Positions 10,604 through 42,569 of a DNA stretch of 64,000 bases are shown one piece after another. Under the pieces are notes generated by a model. The model saw only the letters and a program-made list of their open reading frames with translations, was not told where the DNA came from and did not search any database. The stretch comes from a virus. Position 1 is the stretch's first letter; each line of letters begins with the position of its first letter. Location of the stretch: the UHGV virus genome UHGV-0390448. One strand, 5' to 3'. The translations under genes and the position numbers were made by a program.

Positions 10604-11221
10604 CTAATTTATTAATTCAGTCACCATCTGATACAACGTCATTTCATCAGCATTGTGCCGCCTGAAATCTGCTTTGCCGCCTATTTTTCCATCAGCATGA
10701 ACAGGGACCAACCAGGGGTATTGCTCGCGTATCTCTGCTGGCGCTGCGTGTTGATGGTGCCATTTACACAAAGGGAGAACGTATTTATGCGCGTTCTCTG
10801 CCGTTCTCCCGAAGATGTGGTGCAGGGATACCACAGGGCTATGCTGTCCGTGCATATGGCAGGCAATGCAGGGGAGGGCACCGATGGCAGTTTGTATCCG
10901 GCGCTCATCTGCTGTGAGTGTTCTGCCTTTCAGGCCGCGTGACGCGCGAGTTTTTTTGACAGGAGCAGAAGCGGCCTTCTCTTTTCTTCGCTGTTCATAT
11001 TGCTTCGCTTTTTCAATTTTCTTTTGCCGATATTCAGGCGATGCGGCTTTTTCTCGCGCACGCTGCTGCTGGCGTTGAGCTTGCTGAAGACGTTTTGCCC
11101 TTTGTTCCTCCCGCCATTTCGGATCAGCCAGTTTTTGCAGGGCTTTTTGTGTCTGTTTCTCCCAATAGCTTTGCTTCATAGAAATACCCGGTTTGTCTAC
11201 ATCGCCGCTATGGTTGATCAA
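10604..11221 (-). CDS. ref: Ref-like HNH endonuclease (recombination enhancement function)
   Basis: Highly basic, low-complexity N-terminal half plus C-terminal CIACHMHGQH...CKWHHQH HNH-like motif, as in P1 Ref. Start may be the internal ATG at 11179 rather than the TTG at 11221. Confidence 0.6.
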   Translation of the reverse strand: MINHSGDVDKPGISMKQSYWEKQTQKALQKLADPKWREEQRAKRLQQAQRQQQRAREKAASPEYRQKKIEKAKQYEQRRKEKAASAPVKKTRASRGLKGRTLTADERRIQTAIGALPCIACHMHGQHSPVVSLHHIFGRTAENAHKYVLPLCKWHHQHAAPAEIREQYPWLVPVHADGKIGGKADFRRHNADEMTLYQMVTELIN

Positions 11222-24637: not shown

Positions 24638-25027
24638 ATGGGCTTCCCTTCTCCTGCGGCGGATTATGCAGAGAGCCGTATTTCTCTTGATCAGCAACTA
24701 ATCAGACATCCTTCAGCAACCTACTTCATGCGGGCGGCAGACAGCCATCACCGTGAGGGAATATTGCAGGGTGCTTTGCTGGTGGTTGATTCCTCACTTA
24801 CTCCGGTTGATGGTTCACTGCTTATATGCGCTATGGAGGGGGAATATCGCGTAAAAAGATACCGGAAGTATCCGCGCCAGCACCTGGAGGATTTAAGAAC
24901 CGGGAAGAAAGAGGCGTTACCAGTAGATGACGATGGATACACGGGCAGTAATGCTGTTTTTGGTGTGATCACTCATGTCATCAATGATGCCCGAAGTGGG
25001 GAATTTGATGATTGTCCGGTGATTTAA
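24638..25027 (+). CDS. humD: HumD, UmuD-prime-like SOS mutagenesis protein
   Basis: GFPSPAADYAE...HPSATYF UmuD-family pattern; sits immediately before phd-doc as in P1. Confidence 0.7.
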   Translation: MGFPSPAADYAESRISLDQQLIRHPSATYFMRAADSHHREGILQGALLVVDSSLTPVDGSLLICAMEGEYRVKRYRKYPRQHLEDLRTGKKEALPVDDDGYTGSNAVFGVITHVINDARSGEFDDCPVI

Positions 25028-25099
25028 GCTGCAAAGTGCTGGTGCTTTATGCCTGTGAAGTTTATAGTTGTGTACACATAACGAGTACACGAGGTGTTT

Positions 25100-25321
25100 A
25101 TGCAATCCATTAACTTCCGTACCGCGCGCGGCAACCTTTCTGAAGTGCTCAACAATGTTGAAGCCGGGGAAGAGGTTGAAATCACCCGCAGAGGCCGTGA
25201 GCCAGCAGTAATTGTCAACAAGGCTACTTTTGAAGCCTACAAAAAAGCGGCGCTGGATGCCGAATTTGCATCCCTGTTTGACACTCTGGACTCCACCAAC
25301 AAGGAACTGGTTAACCGATAA
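25100..25321 (+). CDS. phd: Phd antitoxin (prevent-host-death)
   Basis: [39 protein letters not shown] is essentially the P1 Phd sequence as I recall it. Confidence 0.85.
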
Positions 25322-25701
25322 TGAGGCATATATCACCGGAAGAACTTATTGCGCTTCATGATGCGAATATAAACCGCTACGGCGGCCTGCCGGGAATGTC
25401 AGATCCGGGTAGGGCAGAGGCCATTATCGGGAGAGTTCAGGCCAGAGTTGCCTACGAAGAGATCACCGACCTTTTCGAAGTCTCCGCCACCTACCTGGTG
25501 GCTACTGCGAGAGGGCATATATTCAATGATGCCAATAAGCGTACCGCGCTAAACAGTGCGCTGCTATTTCTACGCCGTAACGGTATACAGGTATATGATT
25601 CTCCCGTGCTGGTGGAACTTGCGGTTGGGGCTGCAACTGGTGAAATCCCCGTATCTTCAGTAGCGGAGAAACTACGTGAACTATATGGTTCCAATATTTG
25701 A
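25321..25701 (+). CDS. doc: Doc toxin (death-on-curing, Fic-fold kinase)
   Basis: [48 protein letters not shown] matches P1 Doc. Confidence 0.85.
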
Positions 25702-25734
25702 AAAGAAGCCCGCTCAACCAGGCGGGCTTCCTAC
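25701..25734. terminator. Hairpin between convergent doc and 25737-26843
   Basis: gaagcccgc-tcaaccag-gcgggcttc; T-run on the minus-strand side. Confidence 0.5.
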
Positions 25735-25736
25735 TA

Positions 25737-26843
25737 TCACTCAATGATTTTTTCTGCTGTCAGCCAGCTAATTTCTTGCCTGTCTTTCGGCGGTTTTAGC
25801 ATGTGGGCGTATTCAGCGACATTCTCCCACGGAATTGTTTTTGCCCACTCAACGATAGCATTGTGATCTGCAGTGAAGAGTGGAATGGTGTGCGATTTCA
25901 ACCACTCTAATGTTGTAACGCCATGTTTTTTTGCGTGGTGCTGTGCATGATGCCGGGCTATCACTTGTAATGGCATTGTCCATTCACTACCATCAGGCAT
26001 CGAAAAGCGCATTGTTTTCGGCATATCTGATTCAAGAACAGCCTCCCGAATACCCGGGAACTCACCAAGAACCATGCGACGGTAATCATCGCCGATTTTA
26101 CCACCATACATTTCTGCAATCCCATCAAGATAATCTTGAGTAAGCAGAGGTGATTCTTCTGCGTTCAGCTTGATGGCTGTATAAATACCACATGGATTTT
26201 CTTCAGTTTTTGCACGACCATGATGGGAATCGTAAAAGTGTCCATGTTCCTCCTCTGGAGGAGCGGACATTAAAAGTATACGTGAATCGTCACTCACTAA
26301 AGATGCTCTTAACATCCCGAATAGCCGATAGCTTACAAGAGCCGCGTCCATAACAATGATCAAAAGATGTTCAGCATAATATCCGGCTACATCTTCCTCA
26401 TAATTTAGGCGATATGGTTTAATTTCGCAGCCCCAAGATTTTTGGTAACGATGATTGAGGCCATTTTGGTCGATTTGAAAATACTCTCCCAGTAATGGCG
26501 CTTTTGTATTAGCTTTCTCCCAATACATATTCATGAGTGAGAGAGTTACCATTCCATTACGCTCAAAGTCTGGAGCGACCATGACCGTTTTAGACTCAGG
26601 CATCAGGATCGTATAAAGGATACAAATGATAGCCAGAGCAGACTTATGTCCTATCCCAGTCGGTGTGGTAACGCTGACTGCTGAACCTTTTTGTTGAATC
26701 GCTTCAACAATTAATTTTTGCTGGTGGGTTAACTTAACCCCCATCAACTCTTCTGCTGCTAATGCCCAGTCATGGCTATATTTGCTTACCAGCTCTCTCC
26801 ACTCTGGTAATTCGGTGATGTTTTTAGGCGTCAGCATCAGCAT
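25737..26843 (-). CDS. Terminase-large-subunit-like ATPase paralog with degenerate Walker motifs
   Basis: Aligns by eye to PacB-like 32192-33700: TGIGHKSALAI vs SGHGTGKSSLTA; HLLIIVMDAA vs HLLLILDEAS; HFYDSHHGRAKTEENP vs YFYESHHSRAKAEGNP. Only 368 aa. Confidence 0.6.
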   Translation of the reverse strand: MLMLTPKNITELPEWRELVSKYSHDWALAAEELMGVKLTHQQKLIVEAIQQKGSAVSVTTPTGIGHKSALAIICILYTILMPESKTVMVAPDFERNGMVTLSLMNMYWEKANTKAPLLGEYFQIDQNGLNHRYQKSWGCEIKPYRLNYEEDVAGYYAEHLLIIVMDAALVSYRLFGMLRASLVSDDSRILLMSAPPEEEHGHFYDSHHGRAKTEENPCGIYTAIKLNAEESPLLTQDYLDGIAEMYGGKIGDDYRRMVLGEFPGIREAVLESDMPKTMRFSMPDGSEWTMPLQVIARHHAQHHAKKHGVTTLEWLKSHTIPLFTADHNAIVEWAKTIPWENVAEYAHMLKPPKDRQEISWLTAEKIIE

Positions 26844-27630
26844 CCTCCGCTACCTCTGCCTCCACATCTGCCGCGACTTCATCGGACTGTTCTTCTTTGG
26901 CCTGTTCTGCAATCGCCGCACGGCATTTCGCCCTGGCTGTAGCGATAGCCTCAACTTTCACGTCATTAGGAATACTTGAGGTGACATACATATCCAGTTC
27001 TTCAGCACGGAATACTGTTTTGCCCAGGAATTCATCAAGCATCCAGGTTAAGGAAAAGTCGCAGGAAATCAGGTCTACTTCGCCTTCCGCGCCGTTTGGG
27101 AAATGGATAAATATCTGTTTGCCCAGGCCAAGCACGCGACAAGCAGCCATCATTACTGCAAGTTCCAGGTCTTTGTTTTCACCTGCTACTGGTTGATCCA
27201 CACCAGTAATAGTGCCGTTCAAATGGATATTATATGGCTGATATTTAGAGATACGTTCTACACGCCATGTGCCGGTTAAGGTTCCCTGGCGGAAGATTAT
27301 CGGCGTGACCGAAAGCGACAGCTCTCGAATGAGTTGTTGCGCTATGGCTGGGTCATACAGGGGATCTAACGCGATGCATCCATAAGACTGCGCCAGTTCA
27401 AACAATTCTTCCTGTGTGCACTGAATGCCTCTTGCCGTAATAAAACGTCTGACTCCCGTTTTTCCGTCACGCCAGATAGCAATGCCATTCTCACTATCTA
27501 ACTCTTCGTCTAAGCCCAGGTATGTAAGGATGGTTCGCTCAATGGTGGCAAAGGGCAGGGACATATCATCGTTTACATCCACCAGCAGGCCGTTACGCAG
27601 GCGATATTGAATGTTTTTGGTATTTTCCAC
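26824..27630 (-). CDS. Hypothetical protein with acidic C-terminal tail
   Basis: 268 aa; overlaps the downstream gene start. Confidence 0.5.
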   Translation of the reverse strand: MENTKNIQYRLRNGLLVDVNDDMSLPFATIERTILTYLGLDEELDSENGIAIWRDGKTGVRRFITARGIQCTQEELFELAQSYGCIALDPLYDPAIAQQLIRELSLSVTPIIFRQGTLTGTWRVERISKYQPYNIHLNGTITGVDQPVAGENKDLELAVMMAACRVLGLGKQIFIHFPNGAEGEVDLISCDFSLTWMLDEFLGKTVFRAEELDMYVTSSIPNDVKVEAIATARAKCRAAIAEQAKEEQSDEVAADVEAEVAEDADADA

Positions 27631-27636
27631 GTTAAA

Positions 27637-28299
27637 TCACTCCACAACAAACCAGTCACAGGCCAGCAGGTCGCCAACTGAAGGCACCCACGGAACAACT
27701 ACACCTTGTGCATTTTTTAAGGCGAAATAAGCACCATACGGAACGAGGTCGCCGGGGAAATATCCCTTAATGGCTTCCATTCGTGCCGGGTACTGTCCTT
27801 CAGGAACCAGCCAGCAGAATTGGTTTTCGCCGTTCCACCCGCGTCGAGCAACTTTCTTGCCATCCTTCAGCCACATCAGCGCGTCAGAAAAGTCGGCTGC
27901 TTCAAGGTCGATTTCTTCTTGTAGAGTAGCGATACCGCCAGCAGAAATAGTTACGTCCCTGGCTGTAATGAATGTCACCCCATTGTGACCTTCAATGCTG
28001 AGCAATGTCCCATTTTCGAAGGCGTCGTTAACCCGGCTATAGCATTTTTCAAATGCTTTCTCTGGCACATAGACCAGATAGCCATTTTCAGCAGTGACGA
28101 GATATCCTCCTATTTGCGGGCGGAATTTTTCCAAGAACACACCATCAACACGAAGCGTCATTCCTTTTGGCTCAACGACTTCGATACTGCCAAAAATGGG
28201 CGCATAATCTTCGCCGACAATAACAATATCTTTGATTTTCGATGCCCGAATGATGCTGTGGCATTTGTATTTGGGGAACACCTGAAAAGTGCTGACCAT
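27637..28299 (-). CDS. Phage protein with DUF2829-like C-terminal domain
   Basis: C-terminal MWLKDGKKVARRGW...DLLACDWFVVE pattern. Confidence 0.45.
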   Translation of the reverse strand: MVSTFQVFPKYKCHSIIRASKIKDIVIVGEDYAPIFGSIEVVEPKGMTLRVDGVFLEKFRPQIGGYLVTAENGYLVYVPEKAFEKCYSRVNDAFENGTLLSIEGHNGVTFITARDVTISAGGIATLQEEIDLEAADFSDALMWLKDGKKVARRGWNGENQFCWLVPEGQYPARMEAIKGYFPGDLVPYGAYFALKNAQGVVVPWVPSVGDLLACDWFVVE

Positions 28300-28313
28300 A
28301 ATCCTTCCTCTAC

Positions 28314-28808
28314 TTAAAACTTTTCGTACTGAAGCGGTGTACGCTTGATTTCAACGCGGCCTTCCGATGTGCTACCAAAACCACCAGCACCTCGCTCTGT
28401 TTCATCGAGTTCATCAACTTCTACCAGCGATACCGGTTCAACACGCTCAAAAATGCCTTGCATGACCGCCATTCCAGGCTTGAGGCAAACACCTTCACCA
28501 CCGGGATCTGTAATCAGTTTTGCCATGATTTCACCGCGATAATCGGCGTCGATAATTCCTACGCAGTTAGCCAGGCGCGTATGCTTTTTGCAGCCCAATC
28601 CGGAACGAGGATAAAGTTTCAGACACCAACCAGGAGGGATCGCCATAGCGAGGCCGGTATGCACCCACCAGCTTGAGGAAATAGCGCCATTGCTATCGAT
28701 ACCAGGCGTTATTTCAACAGCAACAAAATCCATCGCCGCCGATCCGGCGGTGGCGTAAACGGGGAGTTTTGCCGCCGGATGAAGGCGTTTCACTTTCACG
28801 TTAATCAT
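28314..28808 (-). CDS. dut: dUTP diphosphatase (trimeric dUTPase)
   Basis: RSGLG, IIDADYRGE and GGFGSTS motifs. Confidence 0.7.
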   Translation of the reverse strand: MINVKVKRLHPAAKLPVYATAGSAAMDFVAVEITPGIDSNGAISSSWWVHTGLAMAIPPGWCLKLYPRSGLGCKKHTRLANCVGIIDADYRGEIMAKLITDPGGEGVCLKPGMAVMQGIFERVEPVSLVEVDELDETERGAGGFGSTSEGRVEIKRTPLQYEKF

Positions 28809-29293
28809 TGCTTTTTAGCTCTCCGGGTAAATGTATAAATCCGGCGTTTGATATGCGGAGCGGTCGGAACGGAGACGCAGGTATTCTCGATAACACCTTG
28901 CTCCTCCAGCGATCGCACAGCACGCAAGAACTGTGATGCATCGCCACCGCCAGATAGCCAGAATTTGCGGGCATAGACGCTGCCATTACGGATAATTTCT
29001 GCGATCACCCGCGCTTGCGTCTGGCTTTCTCGATAGCCAAAGAGTTCTCTTGCCTCTCCTTGTGGGATAGCCAACTGATAGCCTTTCCCGCTACGGTGAC
29101 GGACAAAACCGTGAGCAATGAGGTTCTTCAGCTCATTTCGGGTGCGGATACACCCGTACTCAGGGAACTGTGTGTTGATATCACCAGGCTTATGCCATTC
29201 ATCAGGGCTATCAGCCAGGAGGGACAGAAGTTTCCCTGACAGCTCAGGATTAGTGGTTGGATAGCAGTTCAGGGATGGGTAGTAAGTTTTCAT
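28805..29293 (-). CDS. Hypothetical protein
   Basis: ORF with overlapping junctions on both sides. Confidence 0.5.
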   Translation of the reverse strand: MKTYYPSLNCYPTTNPELSGKLLSLLADSPDEWHKPGDINTQFPEYGCIRTRNELKNLIAHGFVRHRSGKGYQLAIPQGEARELFGYRESQTQARVIAEIIRNGSVYARKFWLSGGGDASQFLRAVRSLEEQGVIENTCVSVPTAPHIKRRIYTFTRRAKKQ

Positions 29294-29634
29294 TTGCGCC
29301 CCCTTGCCGGATAGCGCCCGGCATTTGCATCAGGGGCAATGAAGCCGCTGGTGGGGCGAGTGAAAACATGGTTAATTTTCTCGGTCATAGCGCGATAATT
29401 TTCCTGATAGTGGGCCAGGAGTTTTTCAGCAGCAATGACGGTTACTTTCCGGACGTAGCGTTCAGCTTCCTCCAGATTTCGCCAGTTTTTTTCGAGGGTA
29501 AACACGGGAACGGCATCAAGTCCGGTCATAACACCGAACACCACGACCGCCTGGTCGCGCTTAACGCCCGCAGTGAAGGTTATGGTGTAACCGTCAACAG
29601 TGAAGCGTTTTGATTCCGTAATACGATTGTGCAA
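29290..29634 (-). CDS. Hypothetical protein, first gene downstream of cre
   Basis: 114 aa; occupies the position of P1 cra. Confidence 0.45.
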   Translation of the reverse strand: MHNRITESKRFTVDGYTITFTAGVKRDQAVVVFGVMTGLDAVPVFTLEKNWRNLEEAERYVRKVTVIAAEKLLAHYQENYRAMTEKINHVFTRPTSGFIAPDANAGRYPARGRK

Positions 29635-29692
29635 AGTACCCTCCGCAATAGGCGAGGGTACTTTACATTAAAATGCACTGTCTAAAAAGATT

Positions 29693-29699
29693 GTTAGAA
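29693..29699. promoter_or_regulatory. gttagaa half-site at the 3' end of cre
   Basis: ttgttagaaaattaattcagg. Confidence 0.3.
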
Positions 29700-29706
29700 A
29701 ATTAAT

Positions 29707-30735
29707 TCAGGAATCCATCAGGCGACTATTTGCACCAACGGATGCCCCGCTACGGCGCAAATATCGCATAAGTGTTTCGGGCTTTTTCCATGTGCCTTCC
29801 TGCATGATCTCGACCATTGACACCTGTTTCTCAGCCATATCAATTGCCGCACCAACACGCGCACTATGACCTGTCCACGTCCGGTATCTTCCTTTGTTCG
29901 GCGTGGCATCTCGCTTATTCAGCAATCCCCAGGCATCGCTGAATATTTTCTCCATCGCAGGAGCAGTAAGAGGCGTTGTCGTGATTCTGGCTTTATTACT
30001 GCGGTGTATTGGCGGGAATAGCACCGCGTCCGGATGTTCACGAAGTCCGGACACCTCCAGCCAGTCGTTTAGCACGGCGGTAGTGCAACGAGAAAGCACC
30101 TTATCAAGTCCGGCGGCGGTCGTGATGGTCTTCGTGTGTGAAATATGCAGCGTTACAGTGTCACCTGTTTGGTCCAGATCTCCGACACGGATGCGCGAGA
30201 TTTCTGACATACGCATCAGGGTATTGTATGCCACGAAGAGAAACGCCCGATTGCGCAGGTCCACCAGCCGCTCGGAACGGGACAGCAATACGTCGAGCAA
30301 TTTCAGATCATCCCACCGCAACGGTATAGCCTGGCCTGTACGCTCGCCTTTTTCCGTTGCCGCTTCGCGCCGGATGCGCCGCATGGCCAGAGATACACTT
30401 TTATCGTCTGACAGCGGCGGTAGGCCGCATTGCGAAAGCAGCATGTTAAGCATGGCATAGTGCTTATCAATGGTGGTCGAAGCCAGATCGGCTTCATGCA
30501 ACTGGAGAAGATACTCGCGGGCCATTTCCGGCGTAATCGGGAACCAGGGGCGCTGGCGCGAATTACACCACCGCGCCCAGGAATGAAAGACCAGACGGAG
30601 ATCACGAAGTGTATTTGGGGCATAAGCTCCCTGGTCGTTCATGAACTGCATAAAGTTTTTTGCAGCTTCCTGGTATTCGGTGCCAATATCGCGCAGAAAA
30701 CCGCCAGAACCGCCGGAGATAACTAGTTCACCCAT
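29707..30735 (-). CDS. cre: Cre-like tyrosine site-specific recombinase
   Basis: 342 aa; blocks WFPITPEMAREYLLQL, AYNTLMRMSEISRIRVGDL and WTGHSARVGAAIDMA align to P1 Cre (WFPAEPEDVRDYLLYL, AYNTLLRIAEIARIRVKDI, WSGHSARVGAARDMA). Confidence 0.85.
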   Translation of the reverse strand: MGELVISGGSGGFLRDIGTEYQEAAKNFMQFMNDQGAYAPNTLRDLRLVFHSWARWCNSRQRPWFPITPEMAREYLLQLHEADLASTTIDKHYAMLNMLLSQCGLPPLSDDKSVSLAMRRIRREAATEKGERTGQAIPLRWDDLKLLDVLLSRSERLVDLRNRAFLFVAYNTLMRMSEISRIRVGDLDQTGDTVTLHISHTKTITTAAGLDKVLSRCTTAVLNDWLEVSGLREHPDAVLFPPIHRSNKARITTTPLTAPAMEKIFSDAWGLLNKRDATPNKGRYRTWTGHSARVGAAIDMAEKQVSMVEIMQEGTWKKPETLMRYLRRSGASVGANSRLMDS

Positions 30736-30886
30736 GAAACTATTAAACCTCTATATACAGATGACGCTACGTGAAAAATAGAAAACTGACAGGGTAGTTA
30801 TAAGTTAATTTTCAAAATTCAAGCCTTTGATTCGAGGCATGATTTTTCATCCTTGTCAATACTACCTGTTTACTGGAGATTATAGC

Positions 30887-30920
30887 CTAACTTTAAATAA
30901 TGCCAATTATTTAAAGTTAG
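30887..30920. other. lox-like recombination site, 13-bp inverted arms with 8-bp asymmetric spacer
   Basis: ctaactttaaata-atgccaat-tatttaaagttag; arms 9/13 identical to loxP, spacer begins ATG like loxP; about 150 bp upstream of the cre-like start. Confidence 0.6.
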
Positions 30921-31089
30921 AAATCGGGACTTTTTTCCCAAAAAAACACCGGCAAGATCACTTCGCAAATCTGTCAGCCATGCGGTAGCCGTTTCCTGGT
31001 TACATTTTCTAATAGGAACAATCAAAAAAAAGCGGTTTTATCCTTTACTCACCTTGTTATTCAGCATAAATTTGTCACAGGACTTTTAT

Positions 31090-31096
31090 GTTAGAA
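31090..31096. promoter_or_regulatory. gttagaa half-site about 20 bp upstream of the candidate repressor gene
   Basis: atgttagaaaactaaat. Confidence 0.4.
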
Positions 31097-31116
31097 AACT
31101 AAATCGAGTAGGAATA

Positions 31117-32154
31117 ATGAGTAAGAAGTCGATCGAGAATGAGTACAAACGGTTCCTGCAAACCGCTGAACGGTGGAAAGAGCTGGTGGTCGCAAACTCT
31201 GTTTTCCATGATACCAGTTACGTTGGCGAGGAATTTCGCCATGTTGCATTAACACATGATCCGGCTGTATTAGAAGAAGCTGAAAAATGCATAGCCGAAT
31301 GGAAAGCCTTTGTTGATCTGTGTCGCAAGGATGATGACAAAGCCTCAAACATTGTTGAGTCGGTTTATTTACCGATCCCATTCATTGTTGAGGATACTAA
31401 TCAGAGTACGCATATCGTTATGCAAAGCGCAACCACAACGAGAACATTTACGCGCGAAGACCTGCTGAAAAAATACGATAAAACTATAAAGAAAAGCATG
31501 AAAAACAGGATCTTTTCACAGGTTGTCGGTGCGCTTGAAGAAGAACGCAGATTCTTCGCCGCAGAACGTGAGGGCGAGGTATACCGCGCAAGAAAAGAAG
31601 GTTATACCGATGTGGTGATTACCACCAATATCGAGGGCAACAATGGACTTTCACGCTTCAGAGTGGGTACGCACGGTGCGCTGATCTTTGCAAAAAAAGC
31701 AAACACAGAGATTCCCGTTGTTAACAACGTTGGTGAGCGCCGCACCCTTACCATTTACACTGGCATTAAACCGCTTCCGTGCGGACTTCTCGGCGAATTT
31801 GACCTTTATCGGGTTCGTGACCTGGAAAAGCAGCAGCCAAGCTATGTCGTGAAGTCATATATCCTGAGAAACATTGATATCCGCAATCAGAGTTTAAAAA
31901 ACAAATCAGAGAAAATGCTGTCCGAAGCCGATCCAGCCATACACCAGATCGTTAGCCGGAAAATTCAAGAAGCTAAAGATGCAATGGCAAGGCTGGATAA
32001 AATGGACCTGGAACTACTGGAAGTTATGATTGCCTCCGGCGATGACCTGACAGGCATCCGCCTTACTGAAGCCAGGAAAAAATACGGTAAAAGCGTTGAA
32101 GAACGCTATGGGTACACATTCACACAAACGATGTACGCGGCAAAACTCTGGTAA
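31117..32154 (+). CDS. Candidate immunity repressor, positional analogue of P1 c1; family not recognised
   Basis: 346 aa from MSKKSIENEY; convergent with pacB and between pacB and lox, where P1 has c1; own terminator. No similarity to P1 C1 recognised from memory. Confidence 0.5.
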   Translation: MSKKSIENEYKRFLQTAERWKELVVANSVFHDTSYVGEEFRHVALTHDPAVLEEAEKCIAEWKAFVDLCRKDDDKASNIVESVYLPIPFIVEDTNQSTHIVMQSATTTRTFTREDLLKKYDKTIKKSMKNRIFSQVVGALEEERRFFAAEREGEVYRARKEGYTDVVITTNIEGNNGLSRFRVGTHGALIFAKKANTEIPVVNNVGERRTLTIYTGIKPLPCGLLGEFDLYRVRDLEKQQPSYVVKSYILRNIDIRNQSLKNKSEKMLSEADPAIHQIVSRKIQEAKDAMARLDKMDLELLEVMIASGDDLTGIRLTEARKKYGKSVEERYGYTFTQTMYAAKLW

Positions 32155-32170
32155 TCGCAAGCCACCCACA

Positions 32171-32194
32171 AGCCCCGAATCGCCGGGGCTTTTA
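32171..32194 (+). terminator. Rho-independent terminator after the candidate repressor
   Basis: agccccg-aatcgc-cggggct followed by tttt. Confidence 0.55.
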
Positions 32195-33700
32195 AATGTC
32201 AATATCAGGAATATCCACTTCTGCCAACACCTGATCGCGGAATGTTGCTAGTTCTGCGCCAATGTCTTCATTAGCAGGCACGTAATCCACCAGCATAGTG
32301 AAGCAGTAGGTATCCCATCTGTCCGGCGACTTGATGTTTAACTTCTGCCGCATGTGCTCCTTGCGCATCATCGCCACCTTCCCTTCTTCGTTAAGCATAT
32401 ACGGGATTTTTGATGCCTGATCGGCAGTTTTGGGGTCACTATCGATACGCATACGCCCTGATTTAATGGCATCCCCTGCCATAATATTGGCGTAAGCACG
32501 CTGATTGACAAAGCGTTCTCTGTCTCTTAGCGCAAACATAGGTTTACCCCAACGGATGCGAACGGGATTAGCACCACGGCGGACAAGCTGCGCACACGTA
32601 TCTGAACCAAAGCCATCAGCATCCACAGCAATGGTGATGTTCGGGTATTTATCAGGAGTGCATTCGTTATAGATAAAGTCGGCAAAAGCCAACGGGTCCA
32701 TAGTGCCTGGCATCTCCAGTATCTTAAAGTTCACAACACGTCGTTTCTCACGATAACCGGATACTTTGCATATATTGAGCACCGATTTGTCGCGACCATT
32801 ACCGACGTCAGCGGTCGCTACCCAGCCCCAATCTTTCTCCAGCAACACTTTACGCCGTGCGGCGCGGTCGCACTCATCACGACCAAGCAAATACCCGTTA
32901 ATTGCACGCGGGAACTGGCCCAGCACCTTAACCATGTACTCCAGCGAATCCCTGCCGCCGTACTCCAGCAATTTCTCACGAATAAAGCTCGGTTCAACGA
33001 ATGGAGATTCTTCAGAGTTAAGGACTATTGCCGTCCAGACTCCTTCCGGATTGCCTTCTGCCTTTGCCCTTGAATGGTGGGATTCATAAAAGTAACCGCT
33101 TGGACGCGTAGGCTGGGAAAGCATGAGCATACGGTTATCTTTCTGCGTTAACGCCCCCGTCATGACGTTAATCGCCTTATCTGATATGCCCGATGCTTCA
33201 TCAAGGATTAGCAGTAAATGCTCCGCGTGCTCCCCCGCCAGTGCCTCTTCGTTACCGAGTCGATAACCTTTACAGAGCACTTCCCATATCCCTTTACGGG
33301 AACGCTCATAAAACATGGTGTCAGACAGGACAAAATAGGTCTGTAACCAGCCGTGGCGCTTAACAGCATTCGCCCAAAACTGTTTCACGTATTTGAATAC
33401 GCCTGTTTTTACCTGGCCTATTTTGTTCGCAACAATAATGACGCGGGCGTCGGGGAACAGGATCATAAAAATTAGTAGCAACATCGCGGTAAGGGACGAC
33501 TTACCCGTTCCGTGTCCGGACGTAACGGTCGTCCTGCTCCCCGTCTCCTGCACTGACTGAATGATCTGCTGCTGCTGGTGGGAGGGGAACATCCCAAAAA
33601 TATCGACAACCGCCTGGGTAAAGTTGTATCGATACCTGATAACCATATCGCGCCAACGTGGATCACTGGTGACGCACTTAATCTTACGACCACCAGCCAT
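32192..33700 (-). CDS. pacB: Terminase large subunit (PacB-like)
   Basis: Walker A-like TSGHGTGKSS, Walker B LLLILDEASGI; 502 aa; follows pacA. Confidence 0.8.
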   Translation of the reverse strand: MAGGRKIKCVTSDPRWRDMVIRYRYNFTQAVVDIFGMFPSHQQQQIIQSVQETGSRTTVTSGHGTGKSSLTAMLLLIFMILFPDARVIIVANKIGQVKTGVFKYVKQFWANAVKRHGWLQTYFVLSDTMFYERSRKGIWEVLCKGYRLGNEEALAGEHAEHLLLILDEASGISDKAINVMTGALTQKDNRMLMLSQPTRPSGYFYESHHSRAKAEGNPEGVWTAIVLNSEESPFVEPSFIREKLLEYGGRDSLEYMVKVLGQFPRAINGYLLGRDECDRAARRKVLLEKDWGWVATADVGNGRDKSVLNICKVSGYREKRRVVNFKILEMPGTMDPLAFADFIYNECTPDKYPNITIAVDADGFGSDTCAQLVRRGANPVRIRWGKPMFALRDRERFVNQRAYANIMAGDAIKSGRMRIDSDPKTADQASKIPYMLNEEGKVAMMRKEHMRQKLNIKSPDRWDTYCFTMLVDYVPANEDIGAELATFRDQVLAEVDIPDIDI

Positions 33701-35064
33701 TAGTCATCCTCCGGCTGGTCTATCGCAATCTCGTCATCTACAGCATCAAAACCGGTATCCCCCGCGTCATAATCACCGTAGATATCAGCCGTGGCGGAAG
33801 GGTCTATATTCAGGTCTTCATCATTGGCCTCAAATTCACCGGCTTTACGTTCTCCGTTCCGGTCGTAATCCCCCATCCCAAGCCTATCAACGATTTTCGC
33901 TACTTCAGCCCGGCGTTGTGCAAGCCATTGTGGGAGTCCAGCTTGTTGCTCGGCAAACTGCTTCGCCTCTTTATCCAGTTGCTCATCATCAACATCGTTA
34001 ACGTCAGAAACCGGAGGCTCCAGAAGTGAGATCGCTTTTGCCGCTCGTGCCGCCAGGATAGCCGGGACACTGACGCCCTGCCGCTCGATATATTCAGCAA
34101 CGCCTATATCGTCCAGCTCCTCGCGCTCACGCATACGTATAGCGGCGGCGATAACTCTGGCGGCGCGTGCGTCAGCGCCAATGCGATACTCAATCTCTTT
34201 GCCACGCTGCTCGGCTTGCAGGCGAGTAATCGCCAGTTTTTCTCTGGCCTCAGCCTCTCTGAATGCCTGCTGGCGCGCGCCCTGCGCAAGTTTTTCATCC
34301 CCCTGGCGTAGCTTCTGCTCGGTCTGGTAGATGGCAGCCAACCTACTGATAAAGTCATTCATGTAGTAGGCCGCATCGCTTATTAGGCCGAGAAGACGCT
34401 GCCCTGGGTGCATTCCCTCTGGCTGTGTATCGCCGAGGGCGTCAATCTCTTCCTGTAGTCGTTCCGCTTCCTGGTCAACGATGGCCTGATACTGAATTGC
34501 TCGTTCCTGCGCCATCTGTATCGCAAGTCGTAAATGTTCAGTCGCGCCGTTCTTCATCATCTCACGGGCGACGTTGGTGGCAGGCAAAGTGGCGCTTTGA
34601 GCTGATGAGTCAGGGATCATTTGCAATGATCCCTTGTTTCGTTGGGCTTTTTCGCTGCTTTTAGGGATCATTTCCCCCATTTCATCACAAAATGATCCCC
34701 TTACATCCTTGTGTATCTTATTGTTATTACTTGGCTTTTCTTTGTGATCCGCATTTTGTTTTTGCGGCATGGCGCGGAATCGTCCACCAGCTAACGATTT
34801 GTCAGTTTTTGTAAATTCTGTGCTTTTATCAGCCTTTTTTTGCTCTTTTTTTGGGCTTGTGGCGCTACTTTTTGCGCGCTGTTTTGTACTTTTCCCGGCA
34901 GCCTTAGCTTTCGCTTTAACCTCGTTTTTTTTCATATTGAGATGCTTTCTGGCGGTGTTAAAGCTGAGGTCATGCTGCTCGCAATATTCTTTTATGGTGA
35001 TCCCGGTTTCTTCTCTTAACTCCAGGAACTTAGCTCGATGCGCTTCCCAGTTAATTAACGTCAT
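33700..35064 (-). CDS. pacA: Terminase small subunit (PacA-like); contains pac-like repeats
   Basis: Position upstream of pacB with start-stop overlap; N-terminal HTH-like region; internal GATC repeat cluster. Confidence 0.6.
   Translation of the reverse strand: MTLINWEAHRAKFLELREETGITIKEYCEQHDLSFNTARKHLNMKKNEVKAKAKAAGKSTKQRAKSSATSPKKEQKKADKSTEFTKTDKSLAGGRFRAMPQKQNADHKEKPSNNNKIHKDVRGSFCDEMGEMIPKSSEKAQRNKGSLQMIPDSSAQSATLPATNVAREMMKNGATEHLRLAIQMAQERAIQYQAIVDQEAERLQEEIDALGDTQPEGMHPGQRLLGLISDAAYYMNDFISRLAAIYQTEQKLRQGDEKLAQGARQQAFREAEAREKLAITRLQAEQRGKEIEYRIGADARAARVIAAAIRMREREELDDIGVAEYIERQGVSVPAILAARAAKAISLLEPPVSDVNDVDDEQLDKEAKQFAEQQAGLPQWLAQRRAEVAKIVDRLGMGDYDRNGERKAGEFEANDEDLNIDPSATADIYGDYDAGDTGFDAVDDEIAIDQPEDD
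34612..34700. other. Candidate pac site: four GATC-centred heptamers as two inverted pairs
   Basis: agggatcatt/aatgatccc at about 34612-34633 and again at about 34664-34699, inside pacA; P1 pac is built from Dam-site hexamer repeats within pacA. Confidence 0.45.
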
Positions 35065-35453
35065 AGGGAAGCCTCACGTTTTTTCACAGCGGCGTTCCAT
35101 AGCTGGTTAGTCATCGCCACCAACTGACGCTGCTCCTTTCGTAATTGAGCTTCTATCTTTCGGTTGGTGTTTTTCACCAACAGCCGACCGAATTCAGGAG
35201 TGCGCCCGCGCACCTTGAACTGGTATCCATTCAGGCCATGTAGCCAATATTTCCGGGGGTATACGCGGTCGTCTATTTCGCAAATGGCACGACTGGAACG
35301 AACAAAAAAACGTATGATGTTATTTACGTTTACGCGCGACACATGAAGGTGAGGATATTGTGCTTTTGCACGGCTGGTGATTTCGGTGACCGTCAGATAG
35401 CAGTCAGCCCTGATCATGATATCCGCTATTTCGGCGCTACTGATTTGCTCCAT
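35061..35453 (-). CDS. Hypothetical protein at the position of P1 lpa (late promoter activator); unverified
   Basis: 130 aa immediately upstream of pacA; degenerate operator site upstream. Confidence 0.35.
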   Translation of the reverse strand: MEQISSAEIADIMIRADCYLTVTEITSRAKAQYPHLHVSRVNVNNIIRFFVRSSRAICEIDDRVYPRKYWLHGLNGYQFKVRGRTPEFGRLLVKNTNRKIEAQLRKEQRQLVAMTNQLWNAAVKKREASL

Positions 35454-35530: not shown

Positions 35531-35558
35531 TATTAGAAAATTAATATTAACTTACTAA
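35531..35558. promoter_or_regulatory. Degenerate operator site attagaa-N14-tactaac
   Basis: Same 7-14-7 spacing; upstream of 35061-35453. Confidence 0.4.
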
Positions 35559-35560
35559 CA

Positions 35561-37046: not shown

Positions 37047-37063
37047 AGATTACTGTTAATTAC

Positions 37064-37561: not shown

Positions 37562-37719
37562 AGTGATTGTGGTGGTCGGTGCTGATCTCCGACTGCGCCT
37601 CTTTTTTTCATAGCCCATAAGGCCGGTCAGTGCGCTTGATGACTGAGGCATCGATATTTACTACGCCGCCTCGTTGCCATAGGGCGGACTTGCGCGCCAG
37701 CAACGCGCATTCACCACAA

Positions 37720-37878: not shown

Positions 37879-37882
37879 AATT

Positions 37883-41238: not shown

Positions 41239-41685
41239 TTAATCAAGATTTACATATTCCGTGATAGCTTTTATGGCTTCATCGGCACTGCGCGCCTCAA
41301 AGCAGTAATAGCCTGCTTCCGTGAGGCGGGTCATCCAGACGAGCTGTTCGGGAGTCAGACGGTTTCTCCCGTGCTTCATCTCAATGCGCATTCCGTGATA
41401 CCCACCACGAGCAAGGTCAATAGAAAGGTCCGGATAGCCCTTCTTCTGACCTTCTGCCACCATCTTAATGGCTGTCCTTTTGCCTCTCAGGCCGCCGTTC
41501 GGTGTTGAGTGTGTGTGTTCATACACGTATCGCATGTTGCGATACAGCCAATCCAGAACGCGAACCTGTTCGTAATGTTCGTAATTCCTTTTTAGTAAGT
41601 CAGGATTTCTTTCTAACTCTCTTAGTGCAGCAGCGTGCGGGGATATTTCAGAATACGCACTATGATGCCTGCGTCTTCGCATCAA
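41239..41685 (-). CDS. VRR-NUC domain nuclease
   Basis: KGYPDLSI...RIEMKHGRNRLTPEQ pattern of PD-(D/E)xK VRR-NUC proteins; operator half-site at its start. Confidence 0.6.
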   Translation of the reverse strand: MMRRRRHHSAYSEISPHAAALRELERNPDLLKRNYEHYEQVRVLDWLYRNMRYVYEHTHSTPNGGLRGKRTAIKMVAEGQKKGYPDLSIDLARGGYHGMRIEMKHGRNRLTPEQLVWMTRLTEAGYYCFEARSADEAIKAITEYVNLD

Positions 41686-41687
41686 AT

Positions 41688-41694
41688 TTCTAAC
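41688..41694. promoter_or_regulatory. ttctaac half-site immediately upstream of the VRR-NUC gene
   Basis: atcaaatttctaacacaaac. Confidence 0.35.
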
Positions 41695-41871
41695 ACAAAC
41701 TTCCTGAAATCATGATCACGATAATAACAAGAGCGTTAGTTTTATCAAAACCGGGTGAAATACTACTAAAGAGATAGGCGGATGCAACAGGTCGGACTTG
41801 TTTTTAGAGTAAATGGTGATGCGGGTCAACAAGCCGGGTAAATTGTATGTCATTTACCCAACTTGTTATTT

Positions 41872-42132
41872 TTAATGGTTTATTTTATCCGGTTCGTTAA
41901 TTTCTGTAACCGCCTTGTCGATAGCGATCATCCATCCTTCATAGGATAAATCATCAACAAGGCCCACCAGCTTATCGTCAGTGTGCGGAAAATAAATCCA
42001 TCCCCATTTCGAAGGGTTTTCTATATGCCGCAGGGTAAATACCCGCTTATAACGGTGGTATTCAAGGGCGTATCCCTTCCCTTGTGAGTACGCTTTTAAG
42101 TCGTCGATCGTAAACCTACGATTCTTTCGCAT
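41872..42132 (-). CDS. Hypothetical small protein
   Basis: 86 aa; 3-nt gap to upstream gene. Confidence 0.45.
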   Translation of the reverse strand: MRKNRRFTIDDLKAYSQGKGYALEYHRYKRVFTLRHIENPSKWGWIYFPHTDDKLVGLVDDLSYEGWMIAIDKAVTEINEPDKINH

Positions 42133-42134
42133 AG

Positions 42135-42569
42135 CTACCCCATGATTCGATATTTCTCTATCGACTCGTCGTAACTTGTGTACACGTATGGCTCTGTATC
42201 ATCAGCATAAGGCGCGACTTCCAGAGCATGAACGGGATTGTATACCGCGTCATTTTCCAGGCGATCGCTCGAATACAGATGCCCGGCTAAAACCGTAAGC
42301 GCCGGGCGACTCATTTTGTAGATCTCTGCCACATCACTATCTACAACTTGTCCAAATGATATGTCGCCGCGCTCCAGCAATAACGTTTTAAGCGCAGGCC
42401 ACCACGGGCCATAAAGGTGATAAAGCTGTGGATCTCGTTTCAGCCTTTCCACCATACCATCCAGATATGCATCCAGAAACGCCTCTTCACTCCTGCCATT
42501 GAGCGCCTGCGGCAAAATATCCTCAAGGTAGGATTCCGTCGGTTTTACAGTGTCAATTAATGTCGTCAT
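42135..42569 (-). CDS. Hypothetical protein, first gene downstream of the DarB-like gene
   Basis: 144 aa. Confidence 0.5.
   Translation of the reverse strand: MTTLIDTVKPTESYLEDILPQALNGRSEEAFLDAYLDGMVERLKRDPQLYHLYGPWWPALKTLLLERGDISFGQVVDSDVAEIYKMSRPALTVLAGHLYSSDRLENDAVYNPVHALEVAPYADDTEPYVYTSYDESIEKYRIMG

What the first reader, a model, noticed from the sequence alone, without database searches (positions are those of the whole stretch)
24638..35453. P1 hallmark modules present but in a different order and orientation from P1
humD-phd-doc is on the plus strand, while the pacA-pacB block and the cre gene with its lox site are on the minus strand, and ref lies about 19 kb away from cre. In P1 as I recall it, doc, lpa-pacA-pacB, c1, lox, cre and ref follow one another in that order. 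This window therefore appears to come from a P1 relative with an inverted block, or a mosaic, rather than P1 or P7 itself.
Basis: partly seen in the sequence, partly recalled or inferred. Interest (0 to 1): 0.45.

Follow-up and report, generated by a model that had tools for sequence, protein, structure and literature searches.

The report
D6-type P1 relative, known gene order
This stretch belongs to a phage D6-like plasmid prophage, a described cousin of phage P1, whose packaging-repressor-recombinase block runs opposite to its humD-phd-doc genes, so the odd order is real but ordinary.

Summary
humD-phd-doc are on the + strand. lpa-pacA-pacB and a Cre homologue with its target site are on the - strand. 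ref lies 18.5 kb from the recombinase.

The element is not P1 or P7. The whole 64-kb window is collinear, same strand, with phage D6 across the D6 record origin. Only 8.3 kb aligns to P1. The "cre/lox" pair is Dre (94% aa identity to D6 Dre, 42% to Cre) with an exact 32-bp rox site; there is no loxP.

The same arrangement occurs in D6 and, collinear over at least 80% of the region, in 97 plasmid records and 91 of 5,426 complete E. coli genomes. It is therefore already known.

Three refinements:
- The inverted block is part of a much larger inverted interval, from gene 26 to ulx (window about 5.2-42.1 kb). The P1-like Cronobacter phage JK004 shares this inversion, so P1's order may be the derived one.
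- The ppp-pmgT-hot-humD-phd-doc island is a mosaic patch, 80-97% aa identical to P1. The backbone is 21-56% identical.
- There is one rox site and no flanking inverted repeats, so this is not an active switch.

Side leads: a candidate D6-type C1 operator, a candidate late-promoter motif, and a degenerate PacB paralogue.

The parts
24638..25027 (+). humD (UmuD'-like, S24 peptidase)
   Evidence: 96% aa identical to P1 HumD, 95% to the D6 homologue. PF00717.
25094..25321 (+). phd antitoxin
   Evidence: 97% aa identical to P1 Phd. PF02604. Directly follows humD as in P1; D6 has an extra orf109 here.
25321..25701 (+). doc toxin. Its 3' end is the junction where similarity to P1 and D6 stops.
   Evidence: 91% aa identical to P1 Doc. 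PF02661. blastn similarity to both P1 and D6 ends at 25691.
25708..25723 (-). Hairpin, terminator-like, between the convergent doc and orf368 units
   Evidence: GCCTGGTTGAGCGGGC followed by a T-rich tail on the - strand. A consensus match only.
25737..26843 (-). orf368: paralogue of the PacB N-terminal ATPase domain with degenerate Walker motifs. A variable cargo gene at the junction.
   Evidence: 34% identical to the window's own PacB over aa 7-263. phrog_5902. Absent from D6, which has pdcA here. Full-length in about 10 plasmid records, partial or absent in the other records that match. 48% identical homologue follows the isaA-like gene in P1 variant MH422554.
26824..27630 (-). isaA-like gene
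   Evidence: 47% aa identical to P1 IsaA, 71% to D6 orf113. phrog_2326.
27637..28299 (-). Tad2-like / DUF2829 domain protein
   Evidence: PF11195, E=1.6e-22, aa 136-219. D6 orf114 homologue.
28314..28808 (-). dut (dUTPase)
   Evidence: PF00692. 89% aa identical to D6 Dut.
28805..29634 (-). Two small genes of unknown function: orf162 (28805-29293) and orf114 (29290-29634)
   Evidence: 71% and 82% aa identical to D6 orf116 and orf117. phrog_6669 and phrog_1968.
29707..30735 (-). dre: Cre-family tyrosine recombinase
   Evidence: 322/342 (94%) identical to D6 Dre. 42% identical to P1 Cre; the residues I recall as Cre's catalytic R173/E176/K201/H289/R292/W315/Y324 are conserved in the alignment. 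PF00589 and PF02899.
30888..30919 (.). rox site: 14-bp inverted arms with a 4-bp GCCA spacer. It is the only copy in the window.
   Evidence: 32/32 identical to the D6 record junction and to the published roxP sequence. No loxP.
30879..30906 (-). Sigma-70-like promoter overlapping rox and pointing into dre
   Evidence: TTGGCA-16-TATAAT, 11 of 12 matches, the best in the region. A consensus match only.
31117..32154 (+). c1 prophage repressor, D6 type. The ORF as listed starts at a TTG at 31054; the likely start is the ATG at 31117, as in D6.
   Evidence: 80% aa identical to D6 C1. Only 21% identical to P1 C1 over 241 aa. phrog_1678. Transcribed opposite to pacB, as in P1 and D6.
32192..33700 (-). 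pacB, pacase large subunit
   Evidence: 92% aa identical to D6 PacB, 56% to P1 PacB. phrog_2, terminase large subunit.
33700..35064 (-). pacA, pacase small subunit
   Evidence: 74% aa identical to D6 PacA, 22% to P1 PacA. phrog_1711, terminase.
34618..34752 (.). Cluster of five GATC sites inside pacA; candidate pac site
   Evidence: Highest GATC density in the window. The five sites lie 315-446 nt into pacA, at identical offsets in D6 despite divergent flanking sequence. It lies 3.8 kb from rox; P1 pac to lox is 4.0 kb.
35061..35453 (-). lpa, late promoter activator
   Evidence: PF25716, E=3.7e-50. 82% aa identical to D6 Lpa, 34% to P1 Lpa.
35531..35560 (.). Candidate bivalent D6-type C1 operator upstream of lpa
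   Evidence: Two overlapping inverted copies of TGTTAGAAAAYTAAWTT. One half (D6 4632) recurs at the orthologous D6 position at <=3 mismatches. Parallels P1 Olpa.
31089..31105 (+). Candidate C1 operator ending 12 nt before the c1 ATG (its start is 28 nt upstream)
   Evidence: 1 mismatch to the motif. The same site lies at D6 199-215, ending 12 nt before the D6 c1 start at 227.
29692..29708 (+). Candidate C1 operator at the dre stop codon, upstream of orf114
   Evidence: 1 mismatch. Orthologous site at D6 89948.
10604..11221 (-). ref (RecA-dependent nuclease), co-oriented with dre as in P1 but 18.5 kb away
   Evidence: PF16786, E=6e-36. 54% aa identical to P1 Ref. A candidate bivalent operator lies just upstream at 11225-11254.
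6320..6973 (-). mat, the last gene of the large interval that is inverted relative to P1
   Evidence: 34% aa identical to P1 Mat, 88% to the D6 homologue.
4868..5197 (-). Gene 26 homologue. It marks the left flank of the inverted interval and is in P1 orientation.
   Evidence: 43% aa identical to P1 gp26. The 26-mat neighbourhood (26 next to mat, with at most one small gene between) is shared with D6 and JK004, not P1.
41239..42569 (-). pmgM (41239-41685, inverted relative to P1), a small ORF (41872-42132), and ulx (42135-42569, P1 orientation). This is the right boundary of the inverted interval.

Best explanation
The window is a segment of a D6-type plasmid prophage (phage-plasmid). D6 is a described sister lineage of the P1/P7 group.

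What the region encodes:
- The plasmid-addiction and SOS module humD-phd-doc, read rightward.
- Converging on it, a leftward unit: lpa, then pacA (carrying the likely pac site), pacB, c1 on the opposite strand, rox, dre, two small ORFs, dut, a Tad2-like gene, an isaA-like gene and orf368.

How it works (inferred by homology with P1):
- Lpa turns on late genes.
- PacA and PacB cut at pac and start headful packaging.
- Dre acts on the single rox site to cyclise incoming terminally redundant DNA and to resolve plasmid dimers.
- C1 represses lytic functions.
- Phd-Doc kills cells that lose the plasmid.

The lpa-pac-c1-site-recombinase cassette keeps its internal order, its strand pattern and its roughly 3.8-kb pac-to-site distance. 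It therefore moves through evolution as one functional unit.

Why it differs from P1. The order is a fixed, inherited feature of the D6 lineage, not a switch or an artefact. Relative to P1, the whole interval between tail gene 26 and ulx is inverted; it contains pmgM, pmgS, lpa, pacAB, c1, the site, the recombinase, ref and mat. Inside that interval an island of rightward accessory genes (ppp, pdcB, pmgT, hot, humD, phd, doc) sits between the recombinase and ref instead of between pmgS and lpa.

Most of the island is nearly identical to P1 while the backbone is very divergent. Most of it was therefore probably exchanged laterally with a P1-type phage fairly recently.
For: Identity of the element:
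- The window is collinear with D6 64526->91159/1->36307, on the same strand apart from one 338-bp minus-strand repeat hit in the tail-fibre region. 49.5 of 64 kb align at 74-98% identity. Only 8.3 kb aligns to P1.
- The D6 annotation shows the same order and strands.
- Dre is 94% identical to D6 Dre, with an exact rox site and no loxP.

Fixity:
- 97 plasmid records and 91 of 5,426 complete E. coli genomes hold at least 80% of the region in one collinear place.
- There is one rox site.
- No inverted repeats flank the block.

Cassette integrity:
- Five GATC sites lie at identical offsets in pacA of the window and D6.
- pac to rox is 3.8 kb here; pac to lox is 4.0 kb in P1.
- Candidate C1 operators lie upstream of c1 and lpa at positions orthologous to D6.

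Large inversion and island:
- The signed gene table against P1.
- P1 proteins mapped on whole D6 and on JK004. JK004 inverts the 26-to-lxc/ulx interval en bloc and is otherwise collinear with P1, apart from cin.

Mosaicism:
- Island proteins are 80-97% identical to P1 (pdcB is an exception at 38%). Backbone proteins are 21-56% identical.
- humD-doc is 93.5% nt identical to P1.

Literature:
- D6 is the closest relative outside the monophyletic P1-like clade (PMC11165635).
- D6-like plasmid prophages are described, with a detailed P1-D6 comparison attributed to Gilcrease and Casjens 2018 (PMC6799933).
Against: - The window lacks the D6 replicon, partition and glnS region (D6 36-64 kb), so those lineage markers cannot be checked.
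- About 23% of the window does not align to D6 by blastn. Modules differ: pmgT and orf368 are present here but not in D6; D6 orf109 and pdcA are absent here; the tail-fibre genes are replaced; cin is a remnant.
- No database record is identical. The best are 97-99% identical in parts.
- All functions of the cassette are inferred from P1 homology. pac is only a GATC cluster, and PacA is only 22% identical to P1 PacA.
- The direction of evolutionary change rests on only two non-P1 lineages.
- The packaging-direction argument rests on my recollection of P1 biology, not on a source I could read here.
Confidence: 0.9

Rival explanations
1. The element is P1 or P7 itself, or a very close variant, that has suffered a recent simple inversion of the lpa-to-cre block.
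For: humD-phd-doc is 93-95% nt identical to P1 and P7. The block is internally P1-like in order.
Against: Only 13% of the window aligns to P1. Backbone proteins are 21-56% identical to P1. The recombinase is 42% identical to Cre and the site is rox. P1-type C1 operators and late promoters are absent. The arrangement matches D6 base-for-base in order.
Confidence: 0.01
2. The block is an actively invertible segment, flipped by Dre/rox, by Cin, or by homologous recombination, and this window happens to show one of two states.
For: The region encodes a site-specific recombinase and its site. P1-like phages carry a Cin-invertible tail-fibre segment.
Against: There is a single rox site in 64 kb. No inverted repeat of 18 nt or more brackets the block. 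The only inverted repeat of 30 nt or more in the window is a pair of 34-nt operator-like palindromes at 11.2 and 39.4 kb. cin is a 24-aa remnant here. All 97 well-covered plasmid records and 91 E. coli genomes show one collinear place.
Confidence: 0.02
3. The arrangement is an assembly artefact: a misjoined or chimeric contig.
For: None specific. Mosaic identity patterns can arise from chimeric assemblies.
Against: The same junctions are present in two D6 records (AY753669, the immC region, and MF356679, the complete genome) and in dozens of complete circular plasmids. The junction at the doc 3' end is a clean convergent-gene boundary with a hairpin.
Confidence: 0.01
4. The defining event is not inversion of the pac-cre block. 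Instead the humD-phd-doc-bearing accessory island moved and flipped within a conserved backbone pmgM-pmgS-lpa-pacAB-c1-site-recombinase-ref-mat. This is a re-description of the same data in another reference frame, and it partly overlaps the best explanation.
For: Read on the - strand, the window runs pmgM> pmgS> lpa> pacA> pacB> c1< rox dre> ... ref> mat>. That is the P1 order and relative orientation. Only ppp-pdcB-pmgT-hot-humD-phd-doc is reversed and displaced. JK004 keeps the same backbone without the island between cre and ref. The island has far higher identity to P1 than the backbone.
Against: Relative to the flanks on both sides (genes 6-26 and ulx-darB), it is the backbone interval that is inverted compared with P1, and the island that keeps P1 orientation. 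Neither description alone is complete.
Confidence: 0.45

Closest known systems
Escherichia phage D6 (MF356679 / NC_050154; immC region AY753669) and D6-like plasmid prophages such as pYU39_89
   Same: - Whole-window collinearity on the same strand.
- Same order and strands: humD> phd> doc> | isaA< DUF2829< dut< orf< orf< dre< rox c1> pacB< pacA< lpa<.
- Dre is 94% identical, with an exact rox site.
- C1 is 80% identical, PacB 92%.
- Same GATC offsets in pacA.
- Same candidate operator positions.
- Two C4 antisense RNA loci, as reported for pYU39_89.
   Different: - About 74-98% nt identity in aligned parts; 23% is unaligned.
- orf368 replaces pdcA.
- No orf109 between humD and phd.
- pmgT is present here but not in D6.
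- The Tad2-like protein is longer (220 aa against about 146).
- The ref-to-dre distance is 18.5 kb against 13.4 kb.
- tRNA set is Met, Ser, Thr, Tyr, Arg against Met, Ser, Thr, Asn.
- cin is reduced to a remnant and the tail-fibre genes are replaced.
Phage P1 / P7 (Punavirus)
   Same: - Shares the gene repertoire.
- Same internal layout of the lpa-pacA-pacB-c1-site-recombinase cassette, with pac about 4 kb from the site.
- Recombinase, ref and mat are co-oriented.
- Near-identical humD-phd-doc.
   Different: - The interval between gene 26 and ulx is inverted.
- humD-phd-doc lies between the recombinase and ref, not upstream of lpa.
- No res-mod, lxc, coi/imc, cra or c8.
- Dre/rox instead of Cre/loxP.
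- C1 is only 21% identical.
- P1-type C1 operators and late-promoter boxes are absent.
Cronobacter phage JK004 (MZ188976), a P1-like phage
   Same: - The interval between gene 26 and ulx has the same orientation as in the window and D6.
- The 26-mat neighbourhood (one small gene between) and the pmg-block boundary beside ulx are shared (pmgL, then lxc, in JK004; pmgM, then one small ORF, in the window).
   Different: - JK004 proteins are P1-type: Cre 79%, C1 76%, PacB 85% identical to P1.
- It keeps pdcB next to lpa.
- It has no accessory island between cre and ref; they are 3 kb apart.
- It lacks the D6-type operator motif: 1 hit against 15.

Membership tests
D6-like plasmid prophages (phage-plasmids) | Genome collinear with phage D6 | tested here: met
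   26 blastn segments, all but one (a 338-bp tail-fibre repeat hit) on the same strand and in order, run through the D6 record origin and cover 49.5 of 64 kb.
D6-like plasmid prophages (phage-plasmids) | Dre recombinase with a rox site instead of Cre/loxP | tested here: met
   94% aa identity to Dre. rox is 32/32 identical. No loxP within 3 mismatches.
D6-like plasmid prophages (phage-plasmids) | D6-type immC: C1 divergent from P1 C1, divergently placed next to rox, followed by pacB on the other strand | tested here: met
   C1 is 80% identical to D6 C1 and 21% to P1 C1. Layout as in AY753669.
D6-like plasmid prophages (phage-plasmids) | D6-type plasmid replicon, partition genes and glnS | not testable with these tools
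   The corresponding D6 region (about 36-64 kb) lies outside the window. The closest full plasmids are about 90-kb non-mobilizable replicons.
Punavirus P1/P7 sensu stricto | Nucleotide-level collinearity with P1 | tested here: not met
   8.3 of 64 kb aligns, in scattered patches of both orientations.
Punavirus P1/P7 sensu stricto | Cre with loxP | tested here: not met
   42% identity to Cre. No loxP.
Punavirus P1/P7 sensu stricto | P1 C1 operators (ATTGCTCTAATAAATTT) and Lpa-dependent late promoters (AAGTKACTW-N4-TANNNT) | tested here: not met
   0 operator matches at 3 or fewer mismatches. 1 late-promoter match against 0.84 expected by chance.
Cre/Dre-type tyrosine recombinases | Catalytic residues (R, E, K, H, R, W, Y of Cre) and a two-domain fold | tested here: met
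   The positions I recall as Cre R173, E176, K201, H289, R292, W315 and Y324 are conserved in the alignment. PF02899 and PF00589.
Cre/Dre-type tyrosine recombinases | Recombination activity on the adjacent site | not testable with these tools
   Needs an in vivo or in vitro assay. 20 substitutions separate this protein from the tested Dre.
Site-specific invertible DNA segment (phase-variation switch) | Two recombination sites or inverted repeats bracketing the segment, and both orientations present in populations | tested here: not met
   One rox site. No bracketing inverted repeats. One collinear place, hence one orientation, in the 97 plasmid records and 91 E. coli genomes that hold at least 80% of the region.

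The most novel reading that the evidence does not exclude
Three linked readings are not excluded by the evidence.

1. The interval between tail gene 26 and ulx carries pac, c1, the lox/rox site, the recombinase, ref and mat. It is 20-37 kb long. It exists in two orientations among P1-like phage-plasmids: P1/P7 in one, JK004 and D6-type in the other. The textbook P1 order would then be the derived state, perhaps linked to acquisition of res-mod at one junction.

2. The D6 lineage has rewired the same circuit. It would use its own 17-bp C1 operator, TGTTAGAAAAYTAAWTT, in monovalent and bivalent forms, and its own late-promoter box, GAAATMACA-N2-CTGGATAAG.

3. The D6 lineage recently acquired the P1-type humD-phd-doc addiction island by lateral exchange.

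Some or all of this may already be in Gilcrease and Casjens 2018, which I could not read.
Probability: 0.3. Interest if true: 0.3.

Novelty: already known. Interest (0 to 1): 0.12.

Why it matters
It matters little for discovery. The arrangement is the described gene order of phage D6 and of a common family of roughly 90-kb E. coli, Shigella and Salmonella phage-plasmids. About 1.7% of complete E. coli genomes carry it.

Its practical value is in annotation:
- A "cre/lox" call here would be wrong. It is Dre/rox, a pair described in the genome-engineering literature as orthogonal to Cre/lox.
- P1-based expectations for gene order, C1 operators and late promoters do not transfer to this lineage.

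The side observations could help anyone who studies immunity and late-gene control in D6-type phage-plasmids, if they are not already published. These are the candidate D6-type operator and late-promoter motifs, the orientation polymorphism of the 26-to-ulx interval, and the P1-derived addiction island.

Tried and rejected
- loxP search at 3 or fewer mismatches: none found.
- P1 C1 operator consensus: 0 hits.
- P1 late-promoter pattern, derived from 11 annotated P1 late promoters: 1 hit against 0.84 expected. P1 regulatory motifs therefore cannot be used here.
- Inverted repeats that could drive inversion of the block: none bracket it. The only long pair in the window is a pair of operator-like palindromes at 11.2 and 39.4 kb, not the block ends.
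- orf368 as the intact form of P1 isaB, which IS1 separates from isaA in P1: rejected, no similarity (E=0.35).
- The primary papers could not be read. The library does not hold Sauer and McDermott 2004 (PMC534624), Gilcrease and Casjens 2018 (PMC5800970) or Lobocka 2004 (PMC523184). The statement that the D6 order is published therefore rests on the GenBank annotations and on secondary papers.
- A literature search for the operator 10-mer returned nothing relevant.
- A search for an open source on P1 packaging direction was not decisive. That step stays marked as recalled knowledge.
- The P1 GATC-offset line printed was buggy and is not used. The P1 pac coordinates come from the annotation.

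Full report
**Observation.** The ORF map and homology searches confirm every positional statement.
- humD (24638-25027), phd (25094-25321) and doc (25321-25701) are on the + strand. They are 96%, 97% and 91% aa identical to the P1 proteins.
- On the - strand lie lpa (35061-35453), pacA (33700-35064), pacB (32192-33700) and a Cre-family recombinase (29707-30735).
- c1 (31117-32154) is on the + strand between pacB and the recombination site.
- ref (10604-11221, - strand; PF16786; 54% identical to P1 Ref) is 18.5 kb from the recombinase.

**What the element is.** A megablast of the region finds phage D6 as the only phage record covering more than the humD-phd-doc kilobase. P1, P7, SJ46, RCS47 and others match only query positions 1-1055.

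I assembled D6 (91,159 bp) and P1 (94,800 bp) from the annotated records and ran blastn against the whole window.
- 26 segments totalling 49.5 kb align to D6 in strictly increasing order, from D6 64,526 through the record origin to 36,307. All but one 338-bp tail-fibre repeat hit are on the same strand.
- Only 8.3 kb aligns to P1, in patches of both orientations.
- The D6 annotation gives the same order and strands as the window: humD> (orf109>) phd> doc> pdcA> isaA-like< DUF2829< dut< orf116< orf117< dre< rox c1> pacB< pacA< lpa<.

This is because D6 itself has this order, not because the recalled P1 order was wrong.

**Cre/lox is Dre/rox.**
- The recombinase is 322/342 identical to D6 Dre and 42% identical to P1 Cre. 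The residues I recall as Cre's catalytic R173, E176, K201, H289, R292, W315 and Y324 are conserved in the alignment.
- The site at 30888-30919 is a perfect 15-nt inverted repeat with a 4-nt spacer. It is identical over 32/32 nt to the D6 record junction and to the published roxP sequence.
- No loxP exists within three mismatches.
- C1 is 80% identical to D6 C1 but only 21% identical to P1 C1. The P1 operator consensus is absent.

**How common it is.**
- 97 PLSDB plasmids hold at least 80% of the 10.8-kb region in one collinear place. The best are pEC361_3 at 96.8% and an E. marmotae plasmid at 98.3%.
- 91 of 5,426 complete E. coli genomes do the same; the best-matching records listed are 89-96-kb replicons.
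- The rest of the window matches the same plasmids at 96-99%.
- No record is identical. The window is a further member of a well-populated lineage.
- D6-like plasmid prophages are described in Salmonella and E. coli. The detailed P1-D6 comparison is attributed to Gilcrease and Casjens 2018 (PMC6799933). D6 is the closest relative outside the monophyletic P1-like clade (PMC11165635).

**Not a switch, not an artefact.**
- There is one rox site in 64 kb.
- No inverted repeat brackets the block. The only inverted repeat of 30 nt or more in the window joins 11.2 and 39.4 kb.
- cin is reduced to a 24-residue remnant.
- All well-covered database copies show one collinear place, hence the same orientation.
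- The D6 immC-region record (AY753669) and the complete D6 genome record (MF356679) carry the same junctions.

**Anatomy and likely function.** The lpa-pacA-pacB-c1-site-recombinase cassette keeps the internal order and strand pattern it has in P1.
- The densest GATC cluster of the window lies inside pacA: five sites at 34618-34752.
- The five sites sit 315, 367, 395, 433 and 446 nt from the pacA start. The offsets are identical in D6, although the flanking sequence differs.
- In P1 the pac site is a GATC-rich cluster about 200-350 nt into pacA.
- The distance from this cluster to rox is 3.8 kb. P1 pac to lox is 4.0 kb.

From my knowledge of P1, which I could not verify in a held paper, packaging runs from pac toward lox. 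The site then falls in the terminal redundancy and lets the recombinase cyclise incoming DNA. Conservation of spacing and polarity fits selection on the cassette as a unit, whichever way it faces in the genome.

Two further features:
- A strong sigma-70-like promoter (11 of 12 matches) overlaps rox and points into dre.
- doc and orf368 converge on a 35-bp spacer that contains a hairpin.

**A wider frame for the "inverted block".** A signed table of window genes against P1 shows three zones.
- The flanks are in P1 orientation: genes 6, 24, 7, 25, 26 on the left and ulx, darB on the right.
- Everything between is inverted and in descending P1 order: mat, ref, the recombinase, c1, pacB, pacA, lpa, pmgS, pmgM (window about 5.2-42.1 kb).
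- The exceptions are an island, ppp, pdcB, pmgT, hot, humD, phd, doc (15.3-25.7 kb), plus a few singletons: pmgF keeps P1 orientation, and a second icd and isaA lie out of P1 order.

The island keeps P1 orientation. It lies between ref and the recombinase instead of between pmgS and lpa.

Mapping P1 proteins on whole genomes gives the same result for D6. It also shows that the P1-like Cronobacter phage JK004 (proteins 45-89% identical to P1) is collinear with P1 everywhere, cin aside, except that the whole 26-to-lxc/ulx interval is inverted en bloc.

The pac-recombinase block is therefore one part of a large interval that has opposite orientation in P1/P7 compared with JK004 and D6-type genomes. 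D6 is the outgroup of the P1-like clade and agrees with JK004. Parsimony therefore mildly favours P1's orientation as the derived one. This is an inference from three lineages only. P1 carries res-mod at the mat-side junction.

The 19-kb separation of ref from the recombinase is partly the same fact seen from another side. The accessory island, inserted between them, fills most of the gap. The leftward genes that follow dre (orf114 to orf368) fill the other roughly 4 kb.

**Mosaicism.**
- Island proteins are 80-97% identical to P1; pdcB is an exception at 38%. humD-doc is 93.5% nt identical to P1.
- Backbone proteins are 21-56% identical and show almost no nucleotide similarity to P1.
- Similarity to both P1 and D6 stops at 25691, ten bases before the doc stop codon.
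- What follows is variable among D6-like plasmids. orf368 is full-length in about 10 records and partial or absent in the other records that match.
- The window also differs from D6 by carrying P1-like pmgT and by lacking D6 orf109 and pdcA.

**Side observations.**

1. Candidate D6-type C1 operator.
   - The 34-nt palindromes found led to a 17-bp motif, TGTTAGAAAAYTAAWTT. It has 15 matches at three or fewer mismatches, against 0.88 expected by chance.
   - All matches lie in or at the edges of intergenic regions. They include single or overlapping inverted pairs upstream of c1, lpa, ref, pdcB, pmgS and repL.
   - D6 also has 15 sites, nine at positions orthologous to window sites. P1 and JK004 have one each.
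   - The placement parallels the P1 operators Oc1, Olpa, Oref, OpmgR and OrepL.

2. Candidate D6-type late-promoter box.
   - GAAATMACA-N2-CTGGATAAG occurs three times against 0.05 expected by chance.
   - The sites lie upstream of lydA, prt and mat. P1 has LPdar, LPpro and LPmat at the corresponding places.

3. orf368.
   - It is a paralogue of the PacB ATPase domain with degenerate Walker A and B motifs.
   - It is paired with the isaA-like gene, as in a P1 variant.

4. Two Tad2-like (PF11195) proteins bracket the dut-to-lpa stretch.

**Verdict.** Interest is low. The residual value lies in correct annotation (Dre/rox and D6-type regulation) and in the small evolutionary and regulatory leads above.

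Noticed in passing
window 10594-10610, 11225-11254, 16065-16094, 29692-29708, 31089-31105, 35531-35560, 39229-39245, 39366-39395, 40624-40640, 51583-51599, 52789-52805: A 17-bp motif, TGTTAGAAAAYTAAWTT, has 15 sites at 3 or fewer mismatches against 0.88 expected by chance. Some form overlapping inverted pairs. All lie in or at the edges of intergenic regions, upstream of c1, lpa, ref, pdcB, pmgS and repL. Nine of the window sites recur at orthologous D6 positions. P1 and JK004 have 1 hit each. It is a candidate D6-type C1 operator.
   Followed up: partly
window 61714-61733(-), 55548-55567(-), 7111-7130(-): The motif GAAATMACA-N2-CTGGATAAG lies upstream of lydA, prt and mat: 3 sites against 0.05 expected by chance. 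These are the places where P1 has late promoters LPdar, LPpro and LPmat. The P1 late-promoter box itself is absent. It is a candidate D6-type Lpa-dependent late promoter.
   Followed up: partly
window 25737-26843(-): orf368 is a paralogue of the PacB N-terminal ATPase domain, 34% identical to the window's own PacB. Walker A (TPTGIGHKS against SGHGTGKS) and Walker B (VMDAA against LDEAS) look degenerate. It is variably present among D6-like plasmids. A 48% identical homologue follows the isaA-like gene in P1 variant MH422554. It is not related to P1 isaB.
   Followed up: partly
window 27637-28299(-) and 35941-36516(-): Two proteins with a C-terminal Tad2-like (Thoeris anti-defence 2, PF11195/DUF2829) domain. 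They have the same orientation and bracket the dut-dre-rox-c1-pacBA-lpa stretch.
   Followed up: no
L012/L013 (Cronobacter phage JK004, MZ188976) against P1: JK004 is collinear with P1 (cin aside) except that the entire interval between gene 26 and lxc/ulx is inverted en bloc. That interval runs pmgL...pdcB-lpa-pacAB-c1-cre-ref-mat. D6 and the window share this orientation, so P1's order may be the derived one.
   Followed up: partly
window 9846-9933(-), 51288-51373(-), 51442-51494(-), 9978-10056(-): There are two C4 antisense RNA loci, each next to an icd homologue and an antirepressor-like gene, giving duplicate immI-like regions. There is also a c4-a1b1 target element and an isrK-like sRNA hit. 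Two such regions were reported for the D6-like plasmid pYU39_89.
   Followed up: no
window 36971-38051(-); L003 6084-7850: The window has five tRNA genes on the - strand: Met(cat), Ser(tga), Thr(tgt), Tyr(gta) and Arg(tct). ARAGORN places the D6 tRNAs on the - strand and finds a fourth, tRNA-Met at 6084-6159. The D6 RefSeq record lists three tRNAs on the + strand. D6 has Asn where the window has Tyr and Arg.
   Followed up: partly
window 61762-64000: The Cin invertase gene is reduced to a remnant: only 24 aa align to D6 Cin residues 11-34. The tail-fibre genes (U-like at 62142-62564, S-like at 62596-63990) are only 31-51% identical to those of D6 and P1. The invertible C segment appears to be replaced. 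The window ends inside this region.
   Followed up: partly
window 30879-30906(-): The best sigma-70-like promoter match of the region is TTGGCA-16-TATAAT. It overlaps the rox spacer and left arm and points into dre. Recombinase binding could therefore autoregulate dre.
   Followed up: no
window 17137-17871(+): A pmgT homologue is 80% aa and 85.5% nt identical to P1 pmgT but has no counterpart in D6. This is a second P1-derived patch, and it distinguishes this sublineage from D6.
   Followed up: no
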